A stretch of 64,000 nt of DNA from Candidatus Avisuccinivibrio stercorigallinarum (GCA_017694225.1 JADINH010000174.1:8807-72806), one strand, 5' to 3'; positions 5,825-49,712 are shown, counted from the first letter of the stretch. The notes: generated by a model not told the origin, from the sequence alone. Numbers and translations are program-made.

Positions 5825-5845
5825 TCTCAGGCGGAGGATGTGAAG

Positions 5846-6883: not shown

Positions 6884-6937
6884 CAGGTTTTTAACAGGTT
6901 TACAGATTTGTTTTGCAAAAACGTGGAGATTACTCTT

Positions 6938-7966: not shown

Positions 7967-8083
7967 AGCTTAACCCTTAATTTAACCCTGGATTTTAACT
8001 GTTTTGTTCCTGCCTGCGGGCAGGCACAGGAAGACTTTACTTAAAAAGCGGCCGCAAGACCGGCCGCAGATTGGAGAAATATC

Positions 8084-9941: not shown

Positions 9942-9960
9942 GAGTAGAGGAGAGAGACTT

Positions 9961-10842: not shown

Positions 10843-10856
10843 GTAAAGCCCGGGAG

Positions 10857-11849: not shown

Positions 11850-11865
11850 GGCAAGGGAGGTTTTT

Positions 11866-12642: not shown

Positions 12643-12774
12643 TCAGCCTGTAACAGTTTGGTACAGCCGCCCAAAATGCACAACGTGCAGCAGATGATCC
12701 CAAACGGGCGGTTGTATTAAGTTTTCTGAGGCGCTTTGTCCCCTTGGCGCCTTTCCTGCATCTATCCCATCCAG

Positions 12775-13802
12775 TCAGTAATACCGATAGTACTGCACCT
12801 TCTTTACCGGCAGCACGCTCTGTCCTGTCTGCTTCAGACAGGCGCGCGGATCGGCAAAAAAGCGCAGGATGTCCTCCGGGCTGAAAACATGCTGGGCGCT
12901 TAAATCTTGGTGGAGATTATTTTCAGCAAACTCATACCGCGGACAGCAGCGCATGAGCTGCGTCATTACCTCCTCCTTGCTGCACTCAAGGGCGCGGGCG
13001 CTGAGCTCAAGCTCTGCGCTGAAGTACTCCTGCACCTCAGATAAGGTAAAGCCGAGCACGCTCTGCCAGCATTTTTCCTGTGAGATCTGCAGCAGGCAGT
13101 CGGTGTCATCTCTGATAAAGAACTTATGCTGCGCAGCCGCATACTCAAGCAGGTACTTTTCGTAGATGTTGTTACCGGTAACAAGAATAAAACGGAAATG
13201 GGGATGGCATACCCGCATCATGCACAGGAACTGAGAGATGGTGCAGAAAATGGCTTTCTGCAGCTCCGGAATGCCCCTGGAGGCCTCAAGCGGAGCGCTG
13301 AGATTGTCAATGAGCAGCACCAGTGAACACTCCGGCACTGCAGAAAAGATGTCCTGCGCGAGATCTGCACTGTCAGGCGGGGTGTCTGCCCCATAAAACT
13401 CATCGTCAGTCTCGACCAGCCGGCCTTCTTGATCGCGCAGCTGCAGCTTTTGCAGCTGCGCCTCAAACATGAGCTCAAGGCCTGCTCAAACTCAGCTCCG
13501 CTTTCGGCCCTGGCAAAGCATGCAAAATCAATCAGCATCACCGGATAGCGCTTCGCGCTCCTGCCTGCCATCAGCTTTTCAAGCTTAAGCCCGGCAAAGG
13601 GTTCCAGGCCTTTGGTAAAAAAGGTCTTGATGGTGTCAAGCAGCAGGCTTTTGCCAAAGCCGTCTGGCCTGGCCAGCTGAAAGCCTTTGGAGGCATAGTA
13701 CAACAGCTCAAAGATAAGATCGGTCTTATCGACGTAGACGGCGCCTGATCGGCGCAGCTCTTCAAAGGAGCCCCGGCAGGATGATCGGGTGGTATCGTGC
13801 AT
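12775..13802 (-). pseudogene. Frameshifted paralogue of the short AAA-ATPase-like gene at 13813..14844
   Basis: Two overlapping minus-strand ORFs (13218..13892 and 12775..13470) together reproduce the neighbour's full architecture. The N part is FEELRRSGAVYVDKTD...ARPDGFGKSLL. The C part is SLVLLIDN...CCPRYEF...FFADP. The frames switch near 13470-13490 (...AEFEQAL / LELMFEAQL), consistent with a 1-nt indel. The ATG at 13802 is preceded by GGAGG. Confidence 0.7.
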
Positions 13803-13812
13803 GGCTGCCTCC

Positions 13813-14844
13813 CTAATAATCGCCGCTTCCCAGCACCTGTACCGGCGGCAGCTGTGCAGAGGCCCGGCTGAGGCTGCCTGCGTGGTCTGCAAAGAAGTTC
13901 AGCACATCCTGCGGCCGGTATTCAGGTGTCAGTTCTTCTGTATCTGCGTTTGTCAGCCATCTTCTGCTGTCTTGCTGAACATAGCGCGGGCAGCAGAGTC
14001 TGAGCTTGTCCATTACCGCGCTGCGGCTGCAGTTCAGGGCGCGGGCGGTATGCTCCAGCGGGGAAGCAAAGTATTCTGCAATTTCCTCCTCAGAGAAGCT
14101 CAGCAGCACATGGCCGTCACGACTGCACGTTAAATCCCATAGCACGCAGGTAGGGATGGAGTGGATAAAGTAATGGATGCTGTCTCCCACGAGATCCCGG
14201 AAGACCCGGGTGCCGGTCACGATCTCCAGCAGAAAGCAGGACTGATCCTTAAGGATGATAAAGAAGCCTTCGATCACACCAAAGATTCGCCGCTGCAGCT
14301 CTTCTGATCGGCCCTTTGCGGCATTGATGGGCGCATCGAAGTTGTCCACGAGCAGCACCAGCGAGTCGTATGGCAGCTTGTCTAACAAGAAGTCCAGAGC
14401 AAAATTTGGATACCTTGGGTCTTCCTCAAAGCAGCGGTTAACATCGATGCGGGCCCCATCTTGGCCGCGCAGCTCCAGCCTGGCAAGCTCATGCTGTATG
14501 TACTGATAGAAGCTGCTTCTAAACTCCTCAGCTGTTTCAAAGTTCGAAATCCGGGCAAGGTCGAGGTGCACCACCGGGGTGGGCTTTAAATCTTTGCGCA
14601 GCTCAATGCTGGAAATCTTAAGCCCGGCAAAAGGCTCCAGACCCTTGGTGAAAAAAGTCTTTAAGGTGCCCACGAACAGGCTTTTGCCAAAACCTTCGGG
14701 GCGGGCAATTTGATAGCCGCGAGCGGCGTGGTTGAGCAAGTCTGCAATCAGATCGGTCTTGTCGACGTAGACGGCGCCGGAGCGGCGCAGTTCTTCAAAG
14801 GAGTTGCAGTTATCTGAGAAAACAGGATTGAAATTGCTGCTCAT
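13813..14844 (-). CDS. Short AAA-ATPase-like (PF09820-type) protein lacking the C-terminal nuclease module
   Basis: FEELRRSGAVYVDKTD...ARPEGFGKSLFVGTL matches the N-terminal signature of the 583-aa protein at 838..2589. The protein ends after the ...VLNFFADH segment. Confidence 0.75.
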   Translation of the reverse strand: MSSNFNPVFSDNCNSFEELRRSGAVYVDKTDLIADLLNHAARGYQIARPEGFGKSLFVGTLKTFFTKGLEPFAGLKISSIELRKDLKPTPVVHLDLARISNFETAEEFRSSFYQYIQHELARLELRGQDGARIDVNRCFEEDPRYPNFALDFLLDKLPYDSLVLLVDNFDAPINAAKGRSEELQRRIFGVIEGFFIILKDQSCFLLEIVTGTRVFRDLVGDSIHYFIHSIPTCVLWDLTCSRDGHVLLSFSEEEIAEYFASPLEHTARALNCSRSAVMDKLRLCCPRYVQQDSRRWLTNADTEELTPEYRPQDVLNFFADHAGSLSRASAQLPPVQVLGSGDY

Positions 14845-14954
14845 AACAAAGTCCTCTAAATTTTTGGATTGAAGTTAATGAGCAGATTTTAAAGGATTTC
14901 CGGGCGGTGCGAAATGCTGATTTTCTTTGCGCAGCTGTCCGCCCGGGGCAATAG

Positions 14955-18580: not shown

Positions 18581-18716
18581 TAACAGTAGTTAAACGCTTG
18601 CGGCCCTTTGCACGGCGGCGGGCTAACACTTTGCGGCCGTCAGCAGTACGCATGCGGACACGGAAGCCGTGGGTGCGCTTGCGCTTTAATACGTTAGGCT
18701 GGAAAGTACGTTTCAT
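18573..18716 (-). CDS. rpmH: 50S ribosomal protein L34
   Basis: Hand translation of the minus strand gives [47 protein letters not shown]. It is below the ORF-track length cutoff. It sits in the classical position upstream of rnpA. Confidence 0.9.
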
Positions 18717-18790
18717 GATTTATATCCTCAGTAAAAACGTAGGTTTTAAAATATTTTTTTCGTTCTCTAGGTGGCTGAAATTCCGCTTTT

Positions 18791-18799
18791 TTATGCACA
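18791..18799 (+). promoter_or_regulatory. Consensus DnaA box (TTATNCACA) in the rpmH-dnaA intergenic region
   Basis: TTATGCACA at 18791-18799 fits the consensus exactly. A second 8/9 box, CTATTCACA, lies at 18928-18936, just upstream of the dnaA start. Confidence 0.5.
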
Positions 18800-18970
18800 G
18801 CACAAGGCCGCAGAGTTTTAGACACCGCTGTAAAGTGCTGTATTCTACTCTGTATTTCAAGCTGTGGTCAAGGTCTAAACTGTGATAAAATGCCTCACGT
18901 TTTTCTTAGGGCCAGTATTCCTCCCCTCTATTCACAACAAGAAGAATAAAGAGCGCAAACGGTTTCACAA

Positions 18971-22947: not shown

Positions 22948-25368
22948 ATGCCAGCATCAGACACTTACGGGACTTCCAGCATTAAGGTGCTGCATGGTCT
23001 TGAAGCAGTACGCAAGCGCCCGGGTATGTATATCGGCGACACAGATGACGGCTCAGGCCTGCACCACATGGTATTTGAGGCCGTGGACAACTCCATTGAC
23101 GAGGCCCTGGCTGGTTTCTGTACTGAAATCAGCGTCACCCTGTACGCAGACGGTTCTGTTGGCGTTAAGGACAACGGCCGCGGCATTCCGGTTGACATGC
23201 ACCCTGAGGAGAAGAAGAGCGCGGCTGAAGTGGTGATGACCGTGCTGCATGCAGGCGGCAAGTTTGATACCAATTCCTATACCGTGTCAGGCGGTCTGCA
23301 CGGCGTGGGCATCTCGGTGGTTAACGCTCTTTCTGACAAGCTGGTGCTGACCATCTGGCGTCAGGGCCATGTCTGGCAGCAGACTTACTTAAACGGCGGC
23401 CATCCGGTGGAGCCGCTTAAGATAATCGGCGATTCCGATCTTACCGGCACTGAGGTGCGCTTCCTGCCCTCCCCGGAGATCTTCTCAGTCACCACTTTTG
23501 ATTACAAGTATCTGGAAAAGCGCCTGCGTGAGCTCTCCTTCCTCAACTCCGGCCTGAAGATTACGCTCTCTGACGAGCGTGACGGCAACAGCCACACCTT
23601 CCATCACGAAGGCGGCATGCTGGAGTTCGTGAAGTTCTTAAACAAGGGCAAGAATGCGCTCAATCAGAAGATCTTCCACGCCTCCAAGGTTTGTGAAGGC
23701 CACATTCAGGTTGAAGTGGCCATGCAGTGGACTGATGCCTACAACGAGAGCATTTTCTGCTTTACCAATAACGTGCCCCAGAAAGACGGCGGCACGCACT
23801 TGGCAGGCTTCAGACGCGCGCTGACCTCCACCTTTACAAGCTTCATGGACAAGCAGGGCTATGCCAAGAAGTACAAGGTCACCACCTCTGGCGATGATGC
23901 CCGTGAAGGCCTTACTGCAGTCATTTCCGTGAAGATGCCGGATCCTAAATTCTCCTCCCAGACCAAGGACAAACTGGTCTCACAGGAGGCATCCACGGCA
24001 GTAAGCCAGGTGCTCTCTGAAAAGCTCAATGAGTTCCTGGAGGAAAACCCGTCAGATGCCGAGAGCATTTGCATGAAGATCATTCAGTCAGCGAGGGTGC
24101 GTGAATCCGTGCGCAAGGCCCGTGACCTGTCGCGCAAGAACGGCCGCCTTGATGTGAACTCACTGCCTGACAAGCTTGCCACCTGCCGCGAGAAGAACCC
24201 TGCTTTGTGCGAGCTCTTCATCGTCGAGGGTGATTCTGCAGGCGGCTCAGCCAAGGGCGGACGTGACAGCAAGTTCCAGGCCATCCTGCCGCTCCGGGGC
24301 AAGATCCTCAATGTTGAGAAGGCCCGCTTTGACCGCATGATTCAGTCACAGCAGGTGGGCACCTTAATTACAGCCCTGGGCTGCGGCATCGGCAAGGACG
24401 AGTACGATCCGGACAAGTTCCGTTACCACAAGGTCATCATCATGACTGATGCTGACGTGGACGGTGCGCACATCCGCATCCTGCTGCTCACCTTCTTCTA
24501 CCGCCAGATGCCAGAGATCATCGAGCGCGGTTATGTCTATATCGCACAGCCGCCGCTTTACCTCTATCAGAAGGGCAAGCAGAAGGTCTACGTGCAGAGC
24601 GACAAGGAAGCCCTGCAGTACCGCACCAACCTGGCTCTGGACAACGCTGCTGTGTACATCAACGAGCAGTCAGCCCCGATCCACGGTGAGCCGCTGGAGA
24701 AGCTCTTTAACGATTACAACAAGGTCATCTCAGCCATGACGCATCTGACCAAGAATCTGCCTGAGGATATCGTGGTCAGCCTGATGTACTATCCGCTCAT
24801 TGATGCCTCAGAGGCTCACGATGAGCACAAGGTCAGGGAGTGGGCTGAGGGCTTTGCCAAGATCCTGCCGGCCATGCCGACCGAGGGCGTGTCCTATTAT
24901 GCACGTACTAAGTTCGATGCTGTGGAGCAGAAGTACTATCCTGTGATCGTGCACCACATTCACGGCCTGGACTATCAGTATGAGCTCACACCGGCCTTCT
25001 TTGCCTCCAGCGATTACTCGCTGCTGCGCCACATGAATGAGAAGGTGGGCGATCTGCTTGGCAAGGGCTCCTTTGTGCGCTCCGGCAATAAGACCACTCC
25101 GGTAAGCAATTTCCATGAGGCCTACAATACCCTCATGAAGCAGGGCTTTGCCGGTGTGACCATTCAGCGCTACAAGGGCCTGGGCGAAATGTCAGCTGAG
25201 CAGCTCTCTGACACCACCATGAACCCTGACACCCGCACCTTGCTCAAGGTCAGCATTGCAGATGCCATTGAGGCCGATCGTCTGCTCTCCGATCTCATGG
25301 GTGAGGAAGTGGAAGTGCGCCGCACCTTTATTTCCGAGAACGCCGAGAAGGCCACACTCGATATCTAA
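22948..25368 (+). CDS. gyrB: DNA gyrase subunit B
   Basis: SSIKVLHGLEAVRKRPGMYIGD, GHKL ATPase motifs, Toprim EGDSAGG and the PLRGKILNVE motif. About 806 aa from the ATG at 22948. Confidence 0.97.
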   Translation: MPASDTYGTSSIKVLHGLEAVRKRPGMYIGDTDDGSGLHHMVFEAVDNSIDEALAGFCTEISVTLYADGSVGVKDNGRGIPVDMHPEEKKSAAEVVMTVLHAGGKFDTNSYTVSGGLHGVGISVVNALSDKLVLTIWRQGHVWQQTYLNGGHPVEPLKIIGDSDLTGTEVRFLPSPEIFSVTTFDYKYLEKRLRELSFLNSGLKITLSDERDGNSHTFHHEGGMLEFVKFLNKGKNALNQKIFHASKVCEGHIQVEVAMQWTDAYNESIFCFTNNVPQKDGGTHLAGFRRALTSTFTSFMDKQGYAKKYKVTTSGDDAREGLTAVISVKMPDPKFSSQTKDKLVSQEASTAVSQVLSEKLNEFLEENPSDAESICMKIIQSARVRESVRKARDLSRKNGRLDVNSLPDKLATCREKNPALCELFIVEGDSAGGSAKGGRDSKFQAILPLRGKILNVEKARFDRMIQSQQVGTLITALGCGIGKDEYDPDKFRYHKVIIMTDADVDGAHIRILLLTFFYRQMPEIIERGYVYIAQPPLYLYQKGKQKVYVQSDKEALQYRTNLALDNAAVYINEQSAPIHGEPLEKLFNDYNKVISAMTHLTKNLPEDIVVSLMYYPLIDASEAHDEHKVREWAEGFAKILPAMPTEGVSYYARTKFDAVEQKYYPVIVHHIHGLDYQYELTPAFFASSDYSLLRHMNEKVGDLLGKGSFVRSGNKTTPVSNFHEAYNTLMKQGFAGVTIQRYKGLGEMSAEQLSDTTMNPDTRTLLKVSIADAIEADRLLSDLMGEEVEVRRTFISENAEKATLDI

Positions 25369-25376
25369 TCTCACAC

Positions 25377-25405
25377 CCGCCGCCGTTCAGCTCTGCTGGC
25401 GGCGG
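25377..25405 (+). terminator. Hairpin after gyrB (terminator-like, no U-tract)
   Basis: CCGCCGCC-N13-GGCGGCGG starts 9 nt after the gyrB stop. It is not followed by a T run. Confidence 0.4.
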
Positions 25406-26452
25406 TATCCCGCCAAATTCAGAATCAGCTCCTCTCTTAACCAGCACACAGTATGCTGTATACTCGATAGGGAGCAGTCTGCCTGCAAATTTTTGCACTA
25501 CATCTTTTTCTGAAGGTTTAAGTAAAAGTTTCCACGCCTGCGCCCAGGCAGGGAGCAGTGTATGGCAGCGGTAGCAGCAGCGATGTCCTTACTGCAATTG
25601 GCACGACGTGCCCGCAAGCTCTGCGCAACTGGTCATCAATTGAATTGAAGGCACACGGCAGCAGATATTCAAGAGGCTGCTGCATTTTAATGTACGTTTT
25701 GTGTTGGTCTGTTGACTGGGCGAGGGCTTTTATTCCCATCATTAGACTGGCTGAGCTGCTTTAGCCGCTATTCAGAAAACCAGCTTGTGTTGAGCCCGGG
25801 GGCGATGTAACTTCGTAAAAGTATGCAGCTGTGCAAAGGCTGATTACTTAGGTAGGTCTGCTCTGCTTAAAAGTACGCGGCATCGTTGTCTGTAATACCG
25901 CCGATAGTAATTTCAATTTTGCTTTGTCAGATTTTTTCGTGCGCATCGGCACTGCTCTATTGACTGGCGCGCAGAGCGCAGATTTTTCAATCCACGATCA
26001 TTACGGCGTCATCCACGCGGTGCATCGATCTTCTGAAAGTTAAAATTTCAATACCACTCCACTCTTTGGATCAATCTCTCATTCGCAGAACAAGCCCAGG
26101 CTGAAAAACTGCACTACGATGTCGGTAATGCTGCAGTGAATTATCCATTTGCCGTTCCAATGTTCAATCATTTAATATGGCTGTCAGTTAATCCAATCTG
26201 AAGCCGCCAAGTCTGTAATGCAGGTCTGAACTTAAATCTTTAAAGCTGCTGAATTTCGTTTAGGCGAAAATTTACAAGTGCTCATATTTTCAGGATTAAG
26301 GAATCAATTTACGGAATCAGCAAATACTATCTGAACAATAACACATCTCAAGATTAACAAAATCTGCAGCCAATCCTTTGTCTGCAAAAGCAGCAGTGGG
26401 AAGTTCAACTCTCCTAATCATCTGGAAGTAAGAGACTGCTGGCTTGAGGTGC

Positions 26453-26480
26453 AGCATCATCTGTGATGCTTTTTATTTTT
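26453..26480 (+). terminator. Terminator-like hairpin plus T-tract inside the region with no credible ORF
   Basis: AGCATCA-tctg-TGATGCT followed by TTTTTATTTTT. No ORF lies upstream, so if it is functional it ends a non-coding transcript. Confidence 0.45.
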
Positions 26481-26661
26481 CAGTCTGATTTCCTTCATCA
26501 TCTGATCTAAGAATTTTCGATTCTTAGTTATGCTCTGATAGTGCATATTGCAAAGATTGATGACATTTGATTAAGACTTTTTCTTTTTCCTCATTTCCTA
26601 AAATCTAACAATCGGCTAAGAGCATATCAATGTTGTCATTATTCACTTTACCGGCGGATAT

Positions 26662-27727
26662 TGATCTACGTGGATCAATCTTGCCTGCATTTTTAATTTC
26701 TTTTTGGTTGGTTTAATTTGTCTGGAGATTTGAAGTTGTCGTCGTTCCTAGATGAGATGACCTTTTCTTATCTCGCATTTCTAAGTTACGAGGAGATTTT
26801 TAAAAACTTGATCTACGTGGATTATCTGAAAAAATCATCTATTGATTTTAGAAATGATGACGGATCTTTCAAAGATTTCTCCTCTATGATTTTTCATGAA
26901 TACGGATCTAAATCTTATAGAGAAACCATTGAAAAGTTGATTCTGATCTACGTGGATCAAAATAAAGTTAGGTCTATATTATAATGCTCACAATCTTCTG
27001 ATATCTCTGTTATATCGCTCTGAATTTACTCCATGGTTTGTATCTTATTTTATAAGTTTCAAACATTGTGATTGCGGTTGAGATGGTGAGTATGTAGCGG
27101 AAGTTGATCTACGTGGATCATTTGTGACAACGAGTTGTGAGTTGATTATCTATCTCTTAATTGATTCCCACTTTGGAACTGTCATCGATTGAGAAGGGAG
27201 ATATTTAGCATTCATTGATCCACGTGGATCATTCGATTTGTAGGATACATGCATCAAACTAACTAAATGTCATTTGTTATCAACTTAACTTAATTCAGTT
27301 CTGCTATGATCCACGTGGATCATGTGATGATGTAAAACAATTTAAGTATATTGCCTTGGCATCAAGGAGTTGATAATTTGGTGTATCTAAGGAAGACTTT
27401 CTGATACCTGGTTATCAAGTTCAAGTTGGCGATGTGCACTCATGACAAGTTCTAATGTTTCTTGGTCATTTGATCCACGTGGATCGGGACTTAGATGTAG
27501 AAGTTTAACATTGTGTGTATGCATGGATACTATTGATCTACGTGGATCATTGTGTTTTAAACTGCTGTTTACACTCAATAATTGATGCAAAACCGAGGCA
27601 TCTGCTTAGGTGGGATGATGCAATGGTATGTGTGTGCAGATGTAATAGATATCAGGCTTTATACCGGTATGCACAGTGGTCGATGACCTTGTGACATTAT
27701 TTGTGGTGTATTGATCCACGTGGATCA
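26662..27727. repeat. Array of nine dispersed copies of the 16-bp palindrome TGATC(C/T)ACGTGGATCA
   Basis: Copies start at 26662, 26809, 26944, 27105, 27216, 27307, 27471, 27534 and 27712. Four are the perfect palindrome TGATCCACGTGGATCA or end in G instead of A (27471). Five carry T at position 6, always on the plus strand. The copy at 26809 ends GGATTA. Spacings are 63-178 bp and the intervening sequence is unique. Confidence 0.9.
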
Positions 27728-27751
27728 CTTCGCCTTTGATGACAGCTGCAG

Positions 27752-27783
27752 GCAAAAAAGAGGGAGACCCGAGGGTCTCCCTT
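27752..27783 (-). terminator. Rho-independent terminator after glyS
   Basis: On the minus strand, a GGGAGACCC-tcg-GGTCTCCC hairpin is followed by TCTTTTTTG. Confidence 0.7.
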
Positions 27784-27801
27784 TGAGCTGACAGTATGCT
27801 A

Positions 27802-29868
27802 TTAGTAGAGTACAGAGATGTCAGCAGTATTGGACAGAATGGCTGCCAGCTTGGTCAGGATCAACAGACGGTTGTTCTTGAGCTTGGCATCCTCTGCGTT
27901 AACCATGACCTTCTCAAAGAAGTTGTCCACGTCAGCACGCAGCTCAGCCAACTTGGAGAGGGCTGCATCGTATGCACCTTCAGAGTAGCAGCGGTCAATC
28001 TCAGGCTTGAGAGCCGTGATGTGGCTGACCAGGTTCTTCTCAGCATCCTCAACCAGCAGTGTGGTATCGACATCACCGCTGACTGCCTCAGCCTTGGAGA
28101 GGATGTTGTTCACGCGCTTGTAGGCGGAAGCCAGATCCTCAGCTTCAGGCAGAGTCTTGAAGGACTGTACAGCCTTGACGCGCTTGTCAAAGTCGAGCAG
28201 TGAAACCGGCTTTACCGAGAGCACGGCCTGGAAGATCTCAGCGCCGATGCCCTGATCCTGATAGTAGGCCTTTAAGCGGTTGAACACGTAGTCAGCAACG
28301 TTGGCCGGGGTGTTAGGTGCAGTGACCTTGTCACCGAGCACAGCAGCGGTCTTGGCAATTGCATCGACCAGGCTGAACTCAAGCTTGTTCTCCAGCACGA
28401 TGCGGATCAGACCGATGGCAGCGCGGCGCAGACCATACGGATCTTTATCACCCTTAGGGAGCTGATTGATGCCAAAGATGCCAACTAAGGTCACGAGCTT
28501 TTCAGATAAGGATACAGCCATCGGCACCGGCTCAGTCGGGATGCGCTCACCAGCAAAGCGCGGCAGGTACTGCTCAAAGATGGCTTTGGAGACCGCAGGA
28601 TCTTCACCATCGAGCTCAGCGTAGTGCATGCCCATGATGCCCTGGGTGTCTGTAAACTCAGTCACCAGAGTGGTGGCCAGGTCGCACTTGGCAAGATAAG
28701 CGGCACGGCGGCACAGAGCTTCATTGGCCTTTAAGAAGGGAGCCAGCCAGGCTGCAGTCTCAGCCACTACTTCACTGCGGTAAGCAATAGTGCCGATGTC
28801 CTTCTGATAGACGATGTTCTCAAGGCGCTCGTGATAGTACTCAAGCTTGTGCTTTCTGTCGGTGTTGAAGAAGAACTCAGCATCAGACAGACGCGGTCTT
28901 ACCACACGCTCATTGCCGGCAATCAGAGTGGACGGATCAGCAGGGTTGATGTTGGAGACGAAAGCGAACTTAGGCAGCAGCTTGCCGTCATCAGAGTAAA
29001 TCGGGAAGTACTTCTGATCGCCCTTCATGGTGTACACCAGAGCTTCAGAAGGAACCTTCAGGAAGCGCTCCTCGAAGGAGGCTAAGAACACGTGCGGGTT
29101 CTCAACTAAGGAAGTGACTTCCTCAAGCAGTGCATCATCAAGATCAGCCTTGCCGTTGACGGAGGCTGCGAGCTCCTGCACCTGCTCCTTGATGGAGGCC
29201 TTGCGCTCTTCGTAATCAGCGATCACAGCGCCTTCGTTGCGCAGCTGATCGAGATAGGTGTCAGCACTCTGAATTTCTAAAGTCTGCTTGCCTAAGAAGC
29301 GGTGGCCGCGGATGGTCTTCGAGGACTCAACGCCGAGCACAGAGCCGGGGATCAATTCAGAACCATAGAGCATGCACAGAGTGTGTACCGGACGGACGAA
29401 CTCATCGTGCTTGTCACCCCAGTGCATCAGCTTAGGAATAGGCAGAGAAGCCAGGGCCTGCTTAAACATGTCAGGGATTAAGGCCACAGCCTCAGTGCCC
29501 TTCTTCTCGGTCTTGATGTAGAGCCACTCGCCTTTGTCAGTCTTTAAGGTCTGAGCCTCTGCCACCGTGATGCCGTGGCTCCTGGCCCAGCCTTCAGCAG
29601 CTTTGGTCGGAGTGCCGTCAGCGTTGAAAGCAGCCTTGACGGCAGGGCCCTTGATCTCCAGCACCTTGTCTTCCTGCTTTTCAGCAAGAGCCTTAACGAT
29701 TAAGGCCAGGCGGCGCGGAGTGGCGTACCAGGAGATGCTCTCATAGGCTAAGCCTTCTTTTTTAAGCAGAGCAGCGAAGTTGTCATTTAAAGCCTGGGCT
29801 AATTTGCGCAGAGCTTTGGGAGGCAGCTCTTCAGTGCCTAATTCGAGTAAGAGATTGTTAGTTGCCAT
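27802..29868 (-). CDS. glyS: Glycine--tRNA ligase beta subunit
   Basis: MATNNLLLELGTEELPPKAL matches the GlyS N-terminus. About 688 aa. The start lies 2 nt after the glyQ stop. Confidence 0.95.
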   Translation of the reverse strand: MATNNLLLELGTEELPPKALRKLAQALNDNFAALLKKEGLAYESISWYATPRRLALIVKALAEKQEDKVLEIKGPAVKAAFNADGTPTKAAEGWARSHGITVAEAQTLKTDKGEWLYIKTEKKGTEAVALIPDMFKQALASLPIPKLMHWGDKHDEFVRPVHTLCMLYGSELIPGSVLGVESSKTIRGHRFLGKQTLEIQSADTYLDQLRNEGAVIADYEERKASIKEQVQELAASVNGKADLDDALLEEVTSLVENPHVFLASFEERFLKVPSEALVYTMKGDQKYFPIYSDDGKLLPKFAFVSNINPADPSTLIAGNERVVRPRLSDAEFFFNTDRKHKLEYYHERLENIVYQKDIGTIAYRSEVVAETAAWLAPFLKANEALCRRAAYLAKCDLATTLVTEFTDTQGIMGMHYAELDGEDPAVSKAIFEQYLPRFAGERIPTEPVPMAVSLSEKLVTLVGIFGINQLPKGDKDPYGLRRAAIGLIRIVLENKLEFSLVDAIAKTAAVLGDKVTAPNTPANVADYVFNRLKAYYQDQGIGAEIFQAVLSVKPVSLLDFDKRVKAVQSFKTLPEAEDLASAYKRVNNILSKAEAVSGDVDTTLLVEDAEKNLVSHITALKPEIDRCYSEGAYDAALSKLAELRADVDNFFEKVMVNAEDAKLKNNRLLILTKLAAILSNTADISVLY

Positions 29869-32470: not shown

Positions 32471-32607
32471 TTGCTATTATACCCTTCATAGGCCGATTTA
32501 CATAAATTCACGAAAATATGAAATAATCATTTATTAATTCCTTTAAAATATAGGGCAACCATAGTATAATAATTTTAACGGAATTTACGATGATTTTTGG
32601 AGGTTTT

Positions 32608-33501
32608 ATGGCAGTTCCTGAAGAAGTAAGAAATGTTCAAAGGCCTGTAAATACCGTAGTTATCAACACGGGCAAGGACGGCCCGTATCGGTACGCGGTA
32701 CGCGCGCGGACAGGTGTCAAATACTTAGGAGCTAACAGAAACCCTCAGCCTATCAACGGAAAAATCATCGGTCACATCATCAACCTCACCTACGTTCCAA
32801 AGGTTTTAGAAACCGTGGACTGCGATCCGCCTCACAAATCCTATGGCATGGCTAAACTTGCCCAAATGTATTCCCAAGATCTTTTGCAGGATTTGCTGGA
32901 GATCATGCCTGCCCATGAGGCCTATAAGCTCATGGCAACAGCCATGGTCAGAGTTGTGAGCCCTTATACTGCCTTCAGCAGGGTCAGTCAACGTTACAGA
33001 GATTCATTTGTATCGGAGTTCATGCCTAACGCGGCACTAAGCGGTTCCACCTTAACAAAGTTTGTCCGTGCTCTTGGCTGCAATGAAAAGATGAGAATGA
33101 GCTTTTATCAAAAGCGCTATGAAGCAGTTTCTGAGGATCACCATATCGCTATTGATGGCACACTCAGGCAGGACAGCAGCATAGTGAATGACTTGAGCCG
33201 TTTCTCTTATAAAGGCCGGGTTAAAGGTGTTAAGGACGTATCGATCCTCTATGCTTATGACATCGAGCTCATGGAGCCGATTTGCTCTCAGGTCTTTCCT
33301 GGAAATCATATTGATGCGGCTTCCTTTGGCGCTTTTATTGAGACCAATAAAATCGACCGTGGCATAATCATTGCTGATAAAGGCTTCCCCTTTAGAGCCG
33401 CAGAAGATAAGTTCAAGGCCCGCCCGCAATTGCATTATATGCTGCCAATGAAGCGCAATGACAGGCGCATCAAAGCTTACGAGCTGACGCTGTATGACGG
33501 C
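32608..33501 (+). pseudogene. N-terminal part of an IS4/IS1634-like DDE transposase gene, interrupted by an IS21-family insertion
   Basis: The ORF reads ...KAYELTLYDG and then runs into the IS21 end at 33502. Removing 33502-38101 joins it in frame to 38102 (...LYDG|ILSNVEGVHYKK...). The ATG at 32608 is preceded by GGAGG. Confidence 0.8.
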
Positions 33502-33797
33502 TGTGGGGTAGATCTAATTTCAGACAACTTTTGACATAGCCAAAAGGTCGTTAAAACATAAAAACCGACAGCCATTTCGCCCCCTGCTCTCCATAACCAC
33601 CTCTGAAGCCTCAAAATTTAATTAAAAGTTATCAAATTTACTGTTGAGATGATACAAGACAGCTCTTGCAATGATTTGAAATGAGCGCTATCTTTTCTGC
33701 AATCTTGATAGAAATAGACAAGAGAAATTTTGGTTAAATTATTTAAAAGCAGCTTGATGATTTTTTACCTTTCTCAAGCTGCGAAAAATAAATCACT

Positions 33798-34433
33798 ATG
33801 CGAAAAACTATATCACGCGGGCAGTTTTTGCTCCACTCCAAACAAGGCAGCACTGGCGCCTTAGAAATCGACTGCCAATTTACAGGCAGACGCAGCTCAT
33901 TACTTCCTGATGCAGCACTGTCAGCTCATGGCAGCTATACCCGCACCATGCCCCCAAGCTTTTTTACAGACGGCAGGGAGATTCACCTGCATCTGCCGCG
34001 CTTCCGCTATAAAGATGCGCACGGGGCCCGCAGGACACTGTCCTGCCGGCCGTACTTCCTGCAGGAGTATGCGCATCACCCGATGCCGGTTCTGATAGTG
34101 CTGTATATCTTAAAGCTGTGCAAGGATGCCAAAAGTGCTGTTGAGGGTATGGCCCGTGGCATGGATGAACGCAAAGCCTTTGCTGTTGGTATGCTGCACA
34201 GCAGCCGCCGCTTAATCGTGCGCACCGGTCTCTCCTTTGCCGCACGCCGCTCTCAGCTCGCAACAGTGCGGCGTTTTCTGCTCGACTTCTTTGGCAGCAG
34301 CTTTAACTGCCGTAAGTTCGCTGCTGATATCTCCGGCCAGAAAAGGCGGAAGTTACTCTCAGCCAATCCGTCGCTGGAGGCCATCAGTAAGCTGTTTCAG
34401 GCTGGGCATGAGTCCTGCGCACACCGTCTGTGA
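33798..34433 (+). CDS. Hypothetical Arg-rich protein inside the IS21 element, upstream of istA (coding status uncertain)
   Basis: 211-aa ORF. The segment HGSYTRT...LPRFRYKDAHGARRTLSCRPYFLQEY loosely recalls zinc-ribbon accessory domains seen next to transposases, but it lacks the cysteines. Overlapping alternative-frame ORFs weaken the call. Confidence 0.3.
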   Translation: MRKTISRGQFLLHSKQGSTGALEIDCQFTGRRSSLLPDAALSAHGSYTRTMPPSFFTDGREIHLHLPRFRYKDAHGARRTLSCRPYFLQEYAHHPMPVLIVLYILKLCKDAKSAVEGMARGMDERKAFAVGMLHSSRRLIVRTGLSFAARRSQLATVRRFLLDFFGSSFNCRKFAADISGQKRRKLLSANPSLEAISKLFQAGHESCAHRL

Positions 34434-34604
34434 GGCACATAATATCTAATTCCATATAGTTTTACGGAGGTTGAGTTAGTGTGAGATAACGTGTCAAAAA
34501 CTCCCGCAAAAATCGAACACAGACTTTAGGGCCGGCGGGGGCCTGAGGCTCCATACAATGCGTGCCGTACCGATTTTGGTGCGTATTATTTACAAGGAGC
34601 CAAC

Positions 34605-36353
34605 ATGGCTATTGACATTCAAACTACGCGGCGCACGCTTATAGCTTTGGCGAAAAATCCTGAGCAGAGTGTTCGTGCGCTCGCAGAAAAGGTGGGCATA
34701 GGCAAGGACAAAGTCTACGAGCTCAAAGATAAACTAGAAAAGAGCAAGCTTACGGAAGAGCAGATTGCCAGCATGCCTGACGAGGAGCTGTCAAAGCGTT
34801 TTAATAGCAAACAAGACCGCAAGCCCTGGGTTTACATGGACTTTATCGAGGTCTTTCACTTCTCCAACAAAAATAAAGAGCATAAGCCCGGAAGCAATGC
34901 CGCGATCTTGGACGCCTGGCGGAAGCTGTACCTGCAGGGCATCTTTGGATTTACGCAGGATGTCAATCCGGCATTCCCTGGCCAGCTGCCGGACGGGTGC
35001 ATGCCCTTTGCGACCTTTCTCAGGAAATACCGCGAGTGGGAGAAGCTCCATGGTGTTAAGCCCGTTAAGGCCGCTTCGGCAGAGACCGGTCCGATCGCTT
35101 CCGATATTACGGAGGTACTGCCAGGCAGTCAGATGCAGATTGATGCCAGCGGTGATCCGGTTTACTGGAAAACACCGTCAGGCAGGATCATCAAGTCTGT
35201 GTTATTTGTGGCAGTACTGGCTTTCTCAGGATTGGTCTTTGCCTGGCTCGGCCCAGATCACTCGGTGCGCACCTGGTGCAGGTTCATCATTGCTGCAGTG
35301 AAGCATTTCGGCGGCAGAGTTGACAGCATAAAAAGCGACAATGAGGCCGCACTGACCTGGCGCAGAAAAATCACCGCAGTCGACGGCACCAGGCTGTGGT
35401 CTATTACCGTTAACCCCACGGTGCTTTATATTAACAGGCGTCTGGGGATGGAGAGCTTTTTATGCGACAGTTACAGTGCGACTGAAAAGGCCTTAAATGA
35501 AAGGGCTGTGGGCTCAATGCAGCGGTTTAAAGGCGTCGTGCTGGGGCACAGCATGGATGACCTGCCTGTAGCCGTCAGCTATGATGCTGTCAATGAGATG
35601 CTGCAGCTCGATGTGGCGGAGTTTAACAGCCGCCCGGTTAAAGACCGCAAGAGCTCCAGACAAGCCTTTTTTGAGGCCTTTGAGCGCCAGCACCTGAAGC
35701 CTGTTACTGTCGGTGAAATCCGCATCCCGGACAAGGTGGATGACAAACACTCAGTCAGCGCATCTGGGTATATCAGGGTCAAAGGCAACAACTACTACGT
35801 CGGTGAAAAATATGCTGCCTGTTCCGTACTGGTGCTGTTTTTCCCTGATAACAAAATTGAAATCCTGCAGCCCTCGGATTACACCAAGCTCAAAGAGTAC
35901 GACCTCGATACCAGGCCGTATCCGCGCGTGCGCAATATCAAACACCCGGAGGACTACACCAGCAGCGAGCGTTTCGTCTCCCGCTCGCTTGATGACCTCC
36001 TGGAGGACTGCCGCAGACGCATGCCTGACATCGCCGATGAAGTGGAGCAGGTACTGCGCAAATTCTTTAACCACAGCCGCCTGCCGGATGCAGGAAAGAA
36101 ACAAACTGGAAACCGCCTGCTCAAGCTGTGCGGCAAGTTCTACAACTCCGCACCAACACAGCTCAAACAAGGACTGGACTGCATTCTGCATGCAGGCCGG
36201 TTTGACAACGTGACCATTATATCCGTGCTTGAGGATTTCATATCCGTGTCGACCGTCACTGCGCCCAGAACCTCAACAGCTAAAGAAATACAAATTATTA
36301 AAAATAATTCTGAATTTGGCCTTAATGCCATGGATAAGGAAGATAACAGATGA
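34605..36353 (+). CDS. istA: IS21-family transposase IstA
   Basis: 582 aa with an N-terminal HTH (SVRALAEKVGIGKDKVYELK), a DDE integrase core (QMQIDASG..., IKSDNEAAL) and 3' overlap with istB (ATGA). Confidence 0.9.
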   Translation: MAIDIQTTRRTLIALAKNPEQSVRALAEKVGIGKDKVYELKDKLEKSKLTEEQIASMPDEELSKRFNSKQDRKPWVYMDFIEVFHFSNKNKEHKPGSNAAILDAWRKLYLQGIFGFTQDVNPAFPGQLPDGCMPFATFLRKYREWEKLHGVKPVKAASAETGPIASDITEVLPGSQMQIDASGDPVYWKTPSGRIIKSVLFVAVLAFSGLVFAWLGPDHSVRTWCRFIIAAVKHFGGRVDSIKSDNEAALTWRRKITAVDGTRLWSITVNPTVLYINRRLGMESFLCDSYSATEKALNERAVGSMQRFKGVVLGHSMDDLPVAVSYDAVNEMLQLDVAEFNSRPVKDRKSSRQAFFEAFERQHLKPVTVGEIRIPDKVDDKHSVSASGYIRVKGNNYYVGEKYAACSVLVLFFPDNKIEILQPSDYTKLKEYDLDTRPYPRVRNIKHPEDYTSSERFVSRSLDDLLEDCRRRMPDIADEVEQVLRKFFNHSRLPDAGKKQTGNRLLKLCGKFYNSAPTQLKQGLDCILHAGRFDNVTIISVLEDFISVSTVTAPRTSTAKEIQIIKNNSEFGLNAMDKEDNR

Positions 36354-37141
36354 TTACCAAGGATTTAAATGAAATCACCCGGGAAGACGTGGTGAACCTC
36401 TGCCAGGAAACCCCGCTGAGCCGTGCAATATGCGCCAGCTTTGTTGCACAGAGCAGCGATGACAGGTTCCCCCTGCTCCACTTCAACGCACAGTTCTACG
36501 TAGTGATGCATGATTACCTGGACAAGCTTGCTGTGCGCCGTATTCAGCGCGGCAAAGACAAGGCAGGCATGCCCAAAGTCACCATGCACGAAATCAGCCA
36601 GGAGCCGGCGCACAGGAATCAATTTGAGCAGATCACAAACTGGATTAACAGCGCCTCCATTGAAGAACAGCGCGATGTGTTCTGCATTGGCGAAACCGGC
36701 GTAGGCAAAACAAATTTTGCCATGAATATTCTGAATGAACTGATTAAGCGCGGCTTCAAAGTGCACTACTATGACTACTGCCTGCTCATATACTCACTCA
36801 GGTGCCTGCTCGGCACCGAGGGCTACAACCAAAAGCTCGACGAGTTTTCAAAGCATAAGGCAGTTCTGCTCGATGACTTCTTGTTCCGCCCGGTATTACC
36901 GGGCGAGGTTGAGATTTTGAAAGATATCATCGACCGCTGCCACAGCAATGGCTGCTCAATAATTATTACCACTCAGGTTGCTGAGAAGGACTGGAAGGCC
37001 CATCTGGGCAGCGGCCTGGCCGTGGATGCCTGCATTGACCGCCTGTGCAACGGGCCGTTCATCGTCAAGTTCGCGGGCAAGTCCTACCGCAGCCGTGAGG
37101 CTGAGCATATGGACATCAACAATCAGCAGGAGGAGGCCTGA
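36350..37141 (+). CDS. istB: IS21-family helper ATPase IstB
   Basis: Walker A motif GETGVGKTNFA and Walker B motif VLLDDF. The size (263 aa) and position after istA fit IstB. Confidence 0.9.
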   Translation: MITKDLNEITREDVVNLCQETPLSRAICASFVAQSSDDRFPLLHFNAQFYVVMHDYLDKLAVRRIQRGKDKAGMPKVTMHEISQEPAHRNQFEQITNWINSASIEEQRDVFCIGETGVGKTNFAMNILNELIKRGFKVHYYDYCLLIYSLRCLLGTEGYNQKLDEFSKHKAVLLDDFLFRPVLPGEVEILKDIIDRCHSNGCSIIITTQVAEKDWKAHLGSGLAVDACIDRLCNGPFIVKFAGKSYRSREAEHMDINNQQEEA

Positions 37142-37143
37142 CA

Positions 37144-37899
37144 ATGAAGGAGCAAAAAATGGAACAAAAGCAGAATTTGGCAAATAGCGAAGAGCAGGCT
37201 GACGGTATCATGTATCAAGATGATACGATGATACATGATACCAAATCGGGCTTGGAAGAGCCTGCTGCCCAGCGCAGTGCCAATGTTACCTTTGAAGAGG
37301 CTGCACAGGTCATTGAGGAGCTGGAGAGCGAGCAGGCCGAAGTTAATCCACGCACAATGAGGGCACGTCTCGGCCGCGGCTCATATACGCACCTGAGAGA
37401 TTTATATAAACTGTATAACGAAAAAAAGCTCAAAGAAGCTGAGGCTTTTACTGCACTCAATGTCGATGCCAAAGACATGGAGATGCGGGCCAAAGAACTG
37501 GTGAGCCTGGCGGTGCAAAGCAATTACCGCATCGTCAACGAAGAGCGTGAGTTCAACCGCACTCAACTTAAAAACTGCCAGGCGCGATATGACGCTCTGG
37601 TGCAGGGATACAAGAAGGAGATTGAACAGCTTAAGGCTGATAAAACCGACCTGAGCGAGGATCTGAAAAAGGCCCGCAATGAAGTGGAATCTACGGCACT
37701 GAAGCTGGCCAATAAAACAACGGAGCACATAAATCTGCAGAAGGAGAATGCTGCGCTGAAAGCCACAAAAACTGAACAGGCTGAGCGGATCGCCGAGCTC
37801 AAGAGCCAGATTGAAACGCTGACCAAAGCAGTCAATCAGCTGAGCAAGAAGCAGGAAAAGGAAGAGGGAATGAAGAAGGAGGATAAACCTAAAGCATAG
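37144..37899 (+). CDS. KfrA-N-like DNA-binding / coiled-coil protein encoded as a third gene of the IS21 element
   Basis: VTFEEAAQVIEELESEQAEVNPRTMRARLGRGSYTHLRDLYKLY resembles the KfrA N-terminal DNA-binding domain. It is followed by about 150 aa of heptad-like E/K/L/Q-rich sequence. The start is 3 nt after the istB stop. Confidence 0.6.
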   Translation: MKEQKMEQKQNLANSEEQADGIMYQDDTMIHDTKSGLEEPAAQRSANVTFEEAAQVIEELESEQAEVNPRTMRARLGRGSYTHLRDLYKLYNEKKLKEAEAFTALNVDAKDMEMRAKELVSLAVQSNYRIVNEEREFNRTQLKNCQARYDALVQGYKKEIEQLKADKTDLSEDLKKARNEVESTALKLANKTTEHINLQKENAALKATKTEQAERIAELKSQIETLTKAVNQLSKKQEKEEGMKKEDKPKA

Positions 37900-38101
37900 A
37901 GTTAAATGCAAAGAGGCGGGGTTCTGAACAGGAGCTCCGCTTCCGATCCTGCCCACCGCAAGAACAGCGATCACAAAGATCCAGAAGCAGCAAAGAGCTG
38001 CCCTCATCAACTGTCTGTTTTTATGTAAAGCCCGTCAAATTCAAGTTGTCGGTTTTTATGTTTTAAAGTGTCTGGTTTTATGTTTACCTGACAATGACGG
38101 C

Positions 38102-38950
38102 ATACTGTCTAATGTGGAAGGCGTGCACTACAAGAAAGTTCAAGTCAGCGACAAAGTCTTTCTTTATGCCTTTCGCGATACCGCCGCGGCCGCCAAAGAA
38201 GAAAAAAGTTTCATGGCCAGAGCCCGCGTTAATGGATCATATGATCCGCAGGAATATGAAAGGAAAAGGCCTTTGTTTGGGACGATATTTTTTGAATCTG
38301 ACCAAGATATCAGCCCAAACACTGCTTATGAATGCTATGACAGCCGCTGGGCAATAGAAGTTTTATTTCGTCAATATAAACAGGACGTTGAGCTGACAAC
38401 GACCGGGGTTCAAAGTGACTTCAGCCTTATCGGCCAGGAGTTTATAAATTTTATTTCTGTCATCATTACAGGGCGCATTATAAGAGCTTTTAAGAAGGCA
38501 GGGCTCTTGGACAAACACACATACGGGAACCTGCGTGAGGCGCTTAATCAAGCACGGCGAAGGACTGAAGCGGCCAAAGACGTAATGCCCAAAACTAGAG
38601 ATATGTATTGGGAATACACCACATCCGAAGCCTTTACATTCATGGAAATGCTGGGGATTTGTGAGCCCTTGGTTCATCCTGAGCCCAAAAAGCGCGGCAG
38701 GCCAAGGAAAAAGCCAGTTGAAGCAACTGAGCAGACGGCACCTAAAAGGCCGCGCGGCAGACCGAGAAAAGAACAGGCTGAAGGCACGGAAACAGCAAAG
38801 AGACCGAGGGGCAGGCCTAGGATTCACCCTAAGCAGGAAGCTGATACGCCAAAGCGGCCGCGGGGGAGACCGAGGATACATCCAAAGCCCGACCCTGATA
38901 TGCCAAAGCGGCCACGTGGCCGCCCGCGCAAGGCACGCAATGTGACATAA
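38102..38950 (+). pseudogene. C-terminal part of the interrupted IS4/IS1634-like transposase, ending in five AT-hook repeats
   Basis: YDSRWAIEVLFRQYK is the IS4-type Y(2)R(3)E(6)K motif. The tail contains five (K)RPRGRPR(K/I) units. Confidence 0.8.
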
Positions 38951-49591: not shown

Positions 49592-49712
49592 TGCCAAGGG
49601 AGCGCTTTGCCTGCAGTTGCCGGGGATCGCGAAGGCAGGCGGGTGGTGAGTGAAGTGTTATCGTTATCATGCTGGTAAAATAAAGACCTGCCGGCATTTT
49701 GGAGTTTTGTGT

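What the first reader, a model, noticed from the sequence alone, without database searches (positions are those of the whole stretch)
26662..27727. Nine copies of a GATC-bearing, parS-like 16-bp palindrome next to dnaA-dnaN-recF-gyrB
TGATC(C/T)ACGTGGATCA occurs nine times in 1.07 kb, at 26662, 26809, 26944, 27105, 27216, 27307, 27471, 27534 and 27712. Spacings are irregular (63-178 bp), the intervening DNA is unique and AT-rich, and there is no credible ORF.

- Eight of the nine copies carry two GATC sites exactly 10 bp apart, one helical turn.
- The central CACGTG core and the outer TG/CA match the canonical chromosomal parS TGTTTCACGTGAAACA at 12/16 positions.
- Each half (TGATCCACG) matches the DnaA box TTATCCACA at 7/9 positions.
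- The C-to-T variant at position 6 is always on the same strand (5 of 9 copies), so the array has polarity.
- I did not notice this 16-mer anywhere else in the 64 kb.

Three candidate roles, none established:
1. A centromere-like loading array for a ParB-family protein with shifted specificity, possibly sensitive to Dam methylation.
2. The true oriC, or a datA-like DnaA / SeqA titration locus.
3. An iteron field left by an integrated replicon.
Basis: partly seen in the sequence, partly recalled or inferred. Interest (0 to 1): 0.85.

Follow-up and report, generated by a model that had tools for sequence, protein, structure and literature searches.

The report
Chromosomal parS centromere array, GATC variant
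The nine palindromes are this gut bacterium's chromosome-partition (parS) sites, but with one normally invariant base swapped in each half, which turns every site into a pair of Dam-methylation (GATC) sites and implies that the protein that reads them has changed too.

Summary
In detail: nine copies of TGATC(C/T)ACGTGGATCA lie at 26662-27727, against 0.02 expected by chance, and there are none elsewhere in the 64 kb.

They sit in a 2.4-kb non-coding gap between the convergent gyrB and glyS genes of a Succinivibrionaceae chromosome.

In 13 related genomes the same gap holds 3-26 copies of the canonical gammaproteobacterial parS, TGTTCCACGTGGAACA. Only the window and its closest relative (L013) carry the GATC form.

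The two forms differ only at positions 3 and 14:
- Position 3 is T in 97 of 98 canonical sites and A in 15 of 15 variant sites.
- On a GlyS tree the variant clade is nested inside canonical lineages, so the variant is derived.

The array is therefore the chromosome's centromere, with a lineage-specific change at a position where a symmetric substitution abolished binding by a canonical ParB in published assays. A co-adapted ParB is inferred.

I could not recover this lineage's ParB. The family does encode ParAB.

The oriC, datA-like and iteron readings are not supported. Coupling to Dam or SeqA is possible but untested.

Verdict: a new variant of a known kind.

The parts
26662..27727 (.). Array of nine variant parS sites (consensus T-TGATCYACGTGGATCA-T), spaced 63-178 bp apart in AT-rich, non-coding DNA.
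   Evidence: composition.
26662..26677 (.). Site 1, TGATCTACGTGGATCA.
26809..26824 (.). Site 2, TGATCTACGTGGATTA. Position 15 is degenerate, so it carries only one GATC.
26944..26959 (.). Site 3, TGATCTACGTGGATCA.
27105..27120 (.). Site 4, TGATCTACGTGGATCA.
27216..27231 (.). Site 5, the perfect palindrome TGATCCACGTGGATCA.
27307..27322 (.). Site 6, perfect palindrome.
27471..27486 (.). Site 7, TGATCCACGTGGATCG.
27534..27549 (.). Site 8, TGATCTACGTGGATCA.
27712..27727 (.). Site 9, perfect palindrome, 74 bp past the glyS stop. It is the positional orthologue of the first canonical parS, which lies 41-121 bp past glyS in eight relatives.
25369..27801 (.). A 2.4-kb non-coding gap between the convergent gyrB and glyS genes. 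The left 1.3 kb (25369-26661) has no sites, no ORF with a family match and no RNA family match.
27761..27782 (-). Intrinsic-terminator-like hairpin of glyS, directly before site 9.
22948..25368 (+). gyrB, the last gene of dnaA-dnaN-recF-gyrB. It is transcribed towards the array.
27802..29868 (-). glyS, transcribed towards the array from the other side.

Best explanation
The array is the parS centromere of this Succinivibrionaceae chromosome.

**Proposed mechanism.**
- ParB dimers recognise each 16-bp palindrome through their helix-turn-helix domains.
- They close as CTP-bound clamps and slide onto the neighbouring DNA.
- Nine loading sites within 1.07 kb, in a gap that lies beyond the transcription terminator of glyS and the 3' end of gyrB, build one dense partition complex next to dnaA-dnaN-recF-gyrB.
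- ParA, and possibly a condensin, then acts on that complex.

**What is special here.** In the clade formed by the window and its closest relative, every site has changed from the family's TGTTCCACGTGGAACA to TGATCCACGTGGATCA (T3 to A, A14 to T). The cognate ParB must therefore have shifted or relaxed its base specificity at that position.

**How the array turns over.** Arrays of this kind grow and renew themselves by tandem duplication of a unit that carries one site. That would let a new site type replace the old one throughout the array.

**Shown versus inferred.**
- Shown: sequence identity to parS, positional orthology, the complete and derived switch, and the presence of ParAB in the family.
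- Inferred: ParB binding, the changed specificity of ParB, and the replacement route.
For: **1. The same gap in relatives holds canonical parS.** The gap after glyS, facing gyrB, holds 3-26 copies of TGTTCCACGTGGAACA in L002, L003, L006-L012, L015 and L020. That sequence is the perfect parS2/parS3 of P. aeruginosa (PMC4368675).

**2. The first site is in a conserved position.** In eight relatives it lies 41-121 bp past the glyS stop and terminator. Window site 9 lies 74 bp past it.

**3. The switch is complete.**
- 98 canonical-lineage sites from 15 genomes: position 3 is T in 97 of 98, and position 14 is A in 98 of 98.
- 15 variant-lineage sites: A in 15 of 15 and T in 15 of 15.
- All other positions have the same consensus.

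**4. The variant is derived.** On a GlyS neighbour-joining tree the window and L013 are sisters. The canonical L002 is the next branch, and the whole group is nested among canonical lineages.

**5. Only the motif is conserved.** Spacers show no blastn or tblastn similarity to any relative. That is the expected signature of selection on protein-binding sites.

**6. The arrays turn over by tandem duplication.**
- L009: 123 bp x 30 copies.
- L010: 74 bp x 4.3 copies at 99% identity.
- L020: 34 bp x 6.7 copies.
- L002: 582-bp units that each carry a decaying copy of the glyS 3' end, a terminator and a parS.

**7. The family encodes ParA and ParB.** They lie in the usual mnmG-rsmG-parA-parB-atp block. 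Members of two of these ParB clusters (those of P0306 and P0428) are named [Succinivibrionaceae bacterium].

**8. Positions 3/14 matter for canonical ParB.** For canonical parS and its ParB, all symmetric double substitutions except at positions 1/16 and 5/12 reduced binding to background (PMC5450999).
Against: - The ParB of this lineage was not recovered, so co-variation of protein and site is not shown. No parA or parB lies in the 64-kb window or in the extra 10 kb examined on each side.
- In two family members parAB follows EarP-EF-P-mnmG-rsmG. In the window, EF-P is followed by unrelated genes. The par genes are therefore elsewhere, or conceivably lost or replaced.
- oriC was not located, so 'origin-proximal' rests only on closeness to dnaA.
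- One unrelated soil contig (L169) has canonical, hybrid and variant sites side by side. Some ParBs may therefore tolerate A at position 3 without any specificity change.
Confidence: 0.8

Rival explanations
1. A Dam/SeqA element. The paired GATC sites, 10 bp apart, would act mainly as a sequestration or titration array for SeqA, or as a datA-like sink for DnaA, and not as a centromere.
For: - Eight of nine sites carry two GATC sites one helical turn apart. From general knowledge, that is the geometry SeqA prefers on hemimethylated DNA.
- A family member has 12 GATC in 250 bp upstream of mnmG, the hallmark of a Dam-controlled origin. Dam and SeqA are therefore plausible in this family.
Against: - The orthologous arrays in 13 relatives have no GATC in the motif, so the ancestral and conserved function is not GATC-based.
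- Conservation covers all 16 bp, including the CACGTG core, not only the GATC.
- DnaA boxes are at background density in the gap: 3 weak matches in 2.4 kb.
- dam and seqA were not found in the window.
Confidence: 0.05
2. A parS array now read by a foreign or paralogous ParB. The lineage would have replaced its chromosomal ParABS with a horizontally acquired system of different specificity, and the sites at the favoured location followed.
For: - The parAB block is not at its family-typical place next to EF-P in the window genome.
- Closely related 16-bp palindromes with distinct ParB specificities are known on Burkholderiales replicons (PMC5450999).
Against: - Only one base per half-site differs from the family's own parS, which is more economical as in-place co-evolution.
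- No plasmid or phage genes adjoin the array.
- A scan of viral contigs found only single, chance-level matches.
Confidence: 0.08
3. The chromosomal replication origin (oriC).
For: The region is AT-rich and non-coding, lies next to dnaA-dnaN-recF-gyrB and is GATC-rich.
Against: - There is no DnaA-box cluster.
- Almost all the GATC sites lie inside the palindrome.
- Relatives have the array without GATC.
- The family's origin-like GATC cluster lies upstream of mnmG in L262.
Confidence: 0.02
4. Iterons or a partition site left by an integrated plasmid or prophage.
For: A repeated 16-22-bp motif in low-GC DNA, with IS elements 5-10 kb away.
Against: - The sites are palindromic, not directly oriented.
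- There is no rep, par or integrase gene in the gap.
- The position is conserved across a family.
- No arrays were found in viral contigs.
Confidence: 0.02

Closest known systems
Chromosomal parS of Gammaproteobacteria (TGTTCCACGTGGAACA; P. aeruginosa parS2/parS3, PMC4368675)
   Same: - A 16-bp palindrome with a CACGTG core, identical at 14 of 16 positions.
- Clustered near dnaA.
- Positional orthologue of arrays with exactly this sequence in related Succinivibrionaceae.
   Different: - Positions 3 and 14 are swapped (T to A, A to T) in all 15 sites of the clade.
- Nine sites lie in 1.07 kb of non-coding DNA, whereas nine of the ten P. aeruginosa sites are predicted to lie inside coding sequences.
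- ParB binding has not been shown here.
Bsr-family centromeres of Burkholderiales replicons (PMC5450999)
   Same: Closely related 16-bp palindromes with a central CG, each read by its own ParB with narrow specificity. The authors propose that tolerated symmetric changes can become fixed and create a new parS.
   Different: Those systems separate co-resident replicons, so avoiding incompatibility is the driver. Here the change is on what appears to be the single main chromosome, at a position that was not tolerated in the canonical parSc1.
Noc-NBS of Firmicutes (PMC7383237)
   Same: A ParB-family protein whose 16-bp palindromic target differs from parS at one or two positions per half-site, brought about by a few specificity-switching residues in the DNA-binding domain.
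   Different: - Noc arose by gene duplication and has a different function, nucleoid occlusion.
- The changed bases are other positions: G1 and A6 in that paper's numbering, against T2 here.
Tandem plasmid centromeres such as F sopC (general knowledge)
   Same: Many copies of a ParB-family binding site in one short array. Relatives L009, L010 and L020 are true tandem arrays.
   Different: The element is chromosomal. In the window the spacers are irregular and have diverged.
Dam-dependent binding of RctB to GATC-bearing iterons of Vibrio cholerae chromosome 2, and SeqA binding to paired hemimethylated GATC (general knowledge; context in PMC6212839)
   Same: Replicon-maintenance sites that contain GATC, so methylation state can gate protein binding once per cell cycle.
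   Different: No methylation or binding data exist here. GATC is a by-product of a single base change in each parS half-site.

Membership tests
Chromosomal parS (ParABS centromere) | A 16-bp palindrome matching TGTTNCACGTGNAACA. | tested here: not met
   14 of 16 positions match. The two mismatches (3 and 14) are positions that are T in 97 of 98 sites and A in 98 of 98 sites in related genomes. Symmetric change there abolished binding by a canonical ParB (PMC5450999). The array therefore works like parS and descends from parS, but it is not a canonical-sequence member.
Chromosomal parS (ParABS centromere) | Orthology with, or descent from, bona fide parS sites. | tested here: met
   Same gap, and same position of the first site after the glyS terminator, as canonical parS arrays in 13 relatives. 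The variant clade is nested among canonical clades.
Chromosomal parS (ParABS centromere) | Origin-proximal location. | tested here: inconclusive
   The array lies 1.3 kb downstream of dnaA-dnaN-recF-gyrB. oriC is not recognisable in the window or in the extra 10 kb examined on each side.
Chromosomal parS (ParABS centromere) | A cognate ParB (ParB_N CTPase plus HTH) and ParA encoded in the genome. | tested here: inconclusive
   None in 64 kb plus about 20 kb. The family does have ParAB.
Chromosomal parS (ParABS centromere) | ParB nucleation and spreading at the sites. | not testable with these tools
   Needs ChIP-seq, EMSA or BLI.
oriC / datA-type DnaA-SeqA locus | A cluster of DnaA boxes (TTATNCACA). 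| tested here: not met
   Three one-mismatch matches in 2.4 kb, which is background density. None of the nine sites is a DnaA box.
oriC / datA-type DnaA-SeqA locus | A GATC cluster conserved in relatives. | tested here: not met
   The GATC sites are confined to the variant motif. Orthologous arrays in relatives lack them. L262 has a separate cluster of 12 GATC in 250 bp upstream of mnmG.
Plasmid iterons | Directly oriented 17-22-bp repeats next to a rep gene. | tested here: not met
   The sites are palindromes, and no rep or other gene lies in the gap.

The most novel reading that the evidence does not exclude
A methylation-gated centromere.

Each variant half-site contains GATC at positions 2-5. 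Dam would therefore place N6-methyl groups in the major groove exactly where the ParB recognition helix reads the site. This lineage's ParB may distinguish fully methylated, hemimethylated and unmethylated parS, or compete with SeqA for the hemimethylated pair 10 bp apart.

If so, ParB loading and origin-region segregation would be reset once per replication round, coupling partition directly to passage of the fork.

Nothing here excludes this. It needs Dam in this genome, methylation at the sites, and binding assays.
Probability: 0.15. Interest if true: 0.85.

Novelty: new variant of a known kind. Interest (0 to 1): 0.58.

Why it matters
Chromosomal parS is one of the most conserved protein-binding sequences in bacteria, and its ParB is highly specific.

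Here a natural lineage has rewritten every copy at a position that canonical ParB does not tolerate. A sister species about 80% identical in GlyS still uses the canonical site. That pairing is a ready-made natural experiment on how a DNA-binding protein and a multi-copy target change specificity together without losing an important function.

The related arrays, from 3 to about 30 copies and some 99% identical tandem units, also show directly how parS clusters are born and renewed. A recent review lists that as an open question (PMC7333895).

The new site is also a double Dam site. This gives a concrete, testable link between DNA methylation and chromosome partition.

Tried and rejected
**1. 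Hunt for this lineage's ParB. Not recovered.**
- Pfam scans of all ORFs of at least 150 aa in the window found no ParA or ParB.
- Six-frame motif scans of all loci found none.
- Ten-kb extensions of both window ends found none.
- A generic gamma-ParB search listed only Shewanella and Alteromonadales.
- The representative search gave 150 unlabelled proteins.
- Two cluster look-ups gave almost no names.
- A shared C-terminal signature then led to the Succinivibrionaceae ParB clade and its loci.
- None of those is from the window's lineage: EF-P is only 74-76% identical.

**2. Metagenome and viral scans for the 16-mer.** More than 120 hits and 42 hits respectively, almost all single and at chance level, with no arrays.

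**3. Literature.** The variant 14-mer does not occur in the searched papers. Nothing has been published on ParB in Succinivibrionaceae.

**4. RNA families.** Rfam found nothing in the gap. The single hit was a eukaryotic snoRNA model at E = 0.03, below its threshold.

**5. Small ORFs of the gap.** No Pfam match. ORFs of relatives have no match in the gap.

**6. DnaA-box and GATC-cluster scans for oriC in the window.** Negative.

**7. The PF01555 methyltransferase at 48410-49591.** It scores far below any curated family cut-off, so its specificity is unknown and it cannot be called a Dam equivalent.

**8. Strand polarity of the position-6 T variant.** Not significant (P about 0.06), and explained by copy ancestry.

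Full report
**1. The observation**

Seven match TGATCYACGTGGATCA exactly. Site 26809 ends in ...GGATTA and site 27471 ends in ...GGATCG.
- Shuffles of the window give 0.02 matches at up to 2 mismatches.
- No further site within 3 mismatches occurs in the 64 kb.
- Eight sites have two GATC sites 10 bp apart.
- The sites lie in the right-hand 1.1 kb of a 2.4-kb gap (25369-27801). The gap has no ORF with a family match and no RNA family match. GC falls to 29-39% against about 54% outside.
- The gap lies between gyrB, the end of dnaA-dnaN-recF-gyrB on the + strand, and glyS-glyQ on the - strand. Both neighbours are transcribed towards it. A terminator-like hairpin of glyS lies at 27761-27782.

**2. 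The organism**

- GlyS retrieves Succinivibrionaceae. It is 83% identical to an unnamed MAG (L013), 80% to Candidatus Anaerobiospirillum merdipullorum (L002), and 63-72% to Succinatimonas, Succinivibrio and other Anaerobiospirillum MAGs.
- An ENA metagenome contig (L001) is the same strain, with 1 mismatch in 14,688 bases.

**3. The decisive comparison**

- I searched all fetched loci for near-matches to the motif. The stretch just downstream of glyS, facing gyrB where the contig reaches it, holds arrays of TGTTCCACGTGGAACA in L002, L003, L006-L012, L015 and L020, with 3 to 26 copies.
- That sequence is the perfect parS2/parS3 of Pseudomonas aeruginosa (PMC4368675).
- In eight relatives the first site lies 41-121 bp beyond the glyS stop. 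Window site 9 lies 74 bp beyond it, with the same stop-terminator-site layout.
- Only the window (with L001) and L013 carry TGATCCACGTGGATCA. L013 has six such sites.
- Pooled counts make the switch clean:
  - In 98 sites from 15 canonical-type genomes, position 3 is T in 97 and position 14 is A in 98.
  - In the 15 sites of the two variant genomes, position 3 is A in 15 and position 14 is T in 15.
  - Every other position keeps the same consensus.
- On a neighbour-joining tree of GlyS, the window and L013 are sisters. The canonical L002 is the next branch, and the group is nested among canonical lineages. The GATC form is therefore derived and recent.
- Spacer DNA has no detectable similarity to any relative. 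Only the 16-mer is under constraint.

**4. What it is**

This is the chromosome's parS cluster: a centromere-like loading site for ParB.

- ParABS biology is taken from the literature. ParB nucleates at parS, spreads as a CTP-dependent clamp, and the complex is moved by ParA. Sites are usually near the origin and number from 1 to about 23 (PMC7333895).
- The family has the proteins. A clade of ParB sequences with a shared C-terminal signature lies in mnmG-rsmG-parA-parB-atp blocks. Members of the clusters of P0306 and P0428 are named [Succinivibrionaceae bacterium].
- Their recognition helix is the ordinary GKSR(S/A)(Q/S)V(T/S)NL(L/I)RL.

**5. What is unusual**

- *The changed position.* For canonical parS and its ParB in Burkholderia cenocepacia, every symmetric double substitution except at positions 1/16 and 5/12 dropped binding to background (PMC5450999). 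All ten natural P. aeruginosa sites keep T3. The base changed here is 'thymine 2' in the numbering of the ParB-parS crystal-structure paper, which showed that a few residues in the DNA-binding domain set specificity (PMC7383237). A complete 3/14 swap therefore implies a ParB with altered or relaxed specificity. That step is inference, because I could not obtain this lineage's ParB (section 8).
- *The dynamics of the arrays.*
  - L009 is a 123-bp unit repeated 30 times.
  - L010 is a 74-bp unit repeated 4.3 times at 99% identity.
  - L020 is a 34-bp unit repeated 6.7 times.
  - In L002 each 582-bp unit carries a decaying copy of the glyS 3' end, its terminator and a parS.
  - The window's array looks like an older product. 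Spacing is irregular, and 73% identity over 48 nt survives between two neighbouring units.
  - Birth and death by tandem duplication offers a route by which one mutated site can replace the whole array.
- *The GATC sites.* The change turns GTTC into GATC in both halves, giving two Dam sites one helical turn apart.

**6. Dam, SeqA and the origin**

- GATC is not avoided in the window: 369 sites, observed/expected 1.01.
- A family member (L262) has 12 GATC in 250 bp immediately upstream of mnmG, against a mean of 1.3 (P about 2e-8 per window). Several sit in GATCTnTTnnnnn-like units, as in E. coli-type origins. Dam control of replication is therefore plausible in the family. I found neither dam nor seqA.
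- In the window there is no comparable cluster outside the array.
- DnaA boxes are at background density in the gap.
- The rpmH-dnaA spacer has one perfect TTATGCACA and no GATC.
- So oriC is not in the window, and the array is not an origin or a datA-like sink.
- Whether methylation or SeqA modulates this centromere is open. I give it as the novel reading at 15%.

**7. A rearrangement nearby**

- In L262 the order is PqiCBA-EarP-EF-P-(GATC-rich region)-mnmG-rsmG-parA-parB-atp. In L250 it is EarP-EF-P-HD-mnmG-rsmG-parA-parB.
- The window genome has PqiCBA-NrdGD-EarP-EF-P (L082). After EF-P (191-754) come about 14 kb of PF09820 ATPase-like genes and a TRAP-transporter and sugar-catabolism cluster, and then mnmE-yidC-rnpA-rpmH-dnaA.
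- The origin-parAB block is therefore somewhere else in this genome. That is compatible with an origin-region rearrangement in this lineage. I cannot say whether it relates to the parS change.

**8. What failed**

- The metagenome scan for the 16-mer was swamped by single chance matches.
- One unrelated soil contig (L169) has canonical, hybrid and variant sites within 75 bp. This warns that A at position 3 may be tolerated by some ParBs.

**9. Verdict**

The second and third are not supported.
- The feature is a known kind of element (chromosomal parS) in a new sequence variant with an interesting evolutionary setting.
- Confidence that it is the parS centromere: about 0.8.
- Interest: 0.58.

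Noticed in passing
L262 5941-6190 (NCBI GCA_045541945.1, contig JAZQKC010000080.1): Twelve GATC sites in 250 bp directly upstream of mnmG, against a mean of 1.3 per 250 bp. Several are in GATCTnTT-like units. It looks like an E. coli/Vibrio-type, Dam-controlled oriC in a Succinivibrionaceae MAG. No DnaA box within one mismatch of TTATCCACA was found there.
   Followed up: partly
window 755-14950, compared with L262 and L250: In two family members EF-P is followed by mnmG-rsmG-parA-parB-atp. In the window, EF-P is followed by about 14 kb of PF09820 'AAA-ATPase_like' genes (838-2589, and fragments at 12775-14844) that bracket an IclR regulator, a TRAP transporter and a sugar-catabolism cluster, and then by mnmE. 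This suggests an insertion or rearrangement at the origin region.
   Followed up: partly
window 32590-38950: An IS21-type element (rve transposase 34605-36353, IstB ATPase 36350-37141) lies between ORFs that match the N-terminal part (32590-33534) and the C-terminal part (38114-38950) of an IS1634-family transposase, below the model's cut-off, as if inserted into that gene. Short-read ENA contigs of the same strain end at about window 32490.
   Followed up: partly
window 48410-50156: A beta-class N6/N4 DNA methyltransferase (PF01555, 393 aa) is followed by a 168-aa ORF with no family match. Its specificity is unknown, and its best curated model (PRK11524) scores far below the cut-off. It could be relevant if it targets GATC.
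   Followed up: partly
L002 3646-5470: The parS array of Candidatus Anaerobiospirillum merdipullorum consists of three further 582-bp units. Each holds a degenerating copy of the last ~400 bp of glyS, a terminator remnant and TGTTCCACGTGGAAC(G/A).
   Followed up: yes
L009 8295-11995: About 30 tandem copies of a 123-bp unit, 26 of them with a parS within one mismatch of the consensus. One copy (10383) is the half-switched hybrid TGATCCACGTGGAACA. This is an unusually large chromosomal parS array.
   Followed up: partly
L169 1710-1798 (JGI contig Ga0187784_10070026, 60% GC): An intergenic trio of TGATCCACGTGGAACA, TGATCCACGTGGATCA and TGTTCCACGTGGAACA within 90 bp in an unrelated environmental bacterium. 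It is a possible natural case of a ParB that accepts both T and A at position 3.
   Followed up: no
window 25369-26661: 1.3 kb between the gyrB stop and the first site. It has no ORF, no family match, no similarity to relatives, a terminator-like hairpin at 26453-26470 (+), and GC that declines from 50% to 36%. Its content is unexplained.
   Followed up: partly
window 18594-18970: The rpmH-dnaA spacer has one perfect TTATGCACA (18791), one one-mismatch box (18928) and no GATC at all. This is unlike the GATC-rich dnaA promoter region of E. coli.
   Followed up: no
L004 and L005 (Anaerobiospirillum MAGs), L021, L022, L025: These family members have no parS near glyS. In L004 the glyS-gyrB gap is only about 230 bp. 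The location of the centromere is therefore not fixed across the whole family.
   Followed up: no
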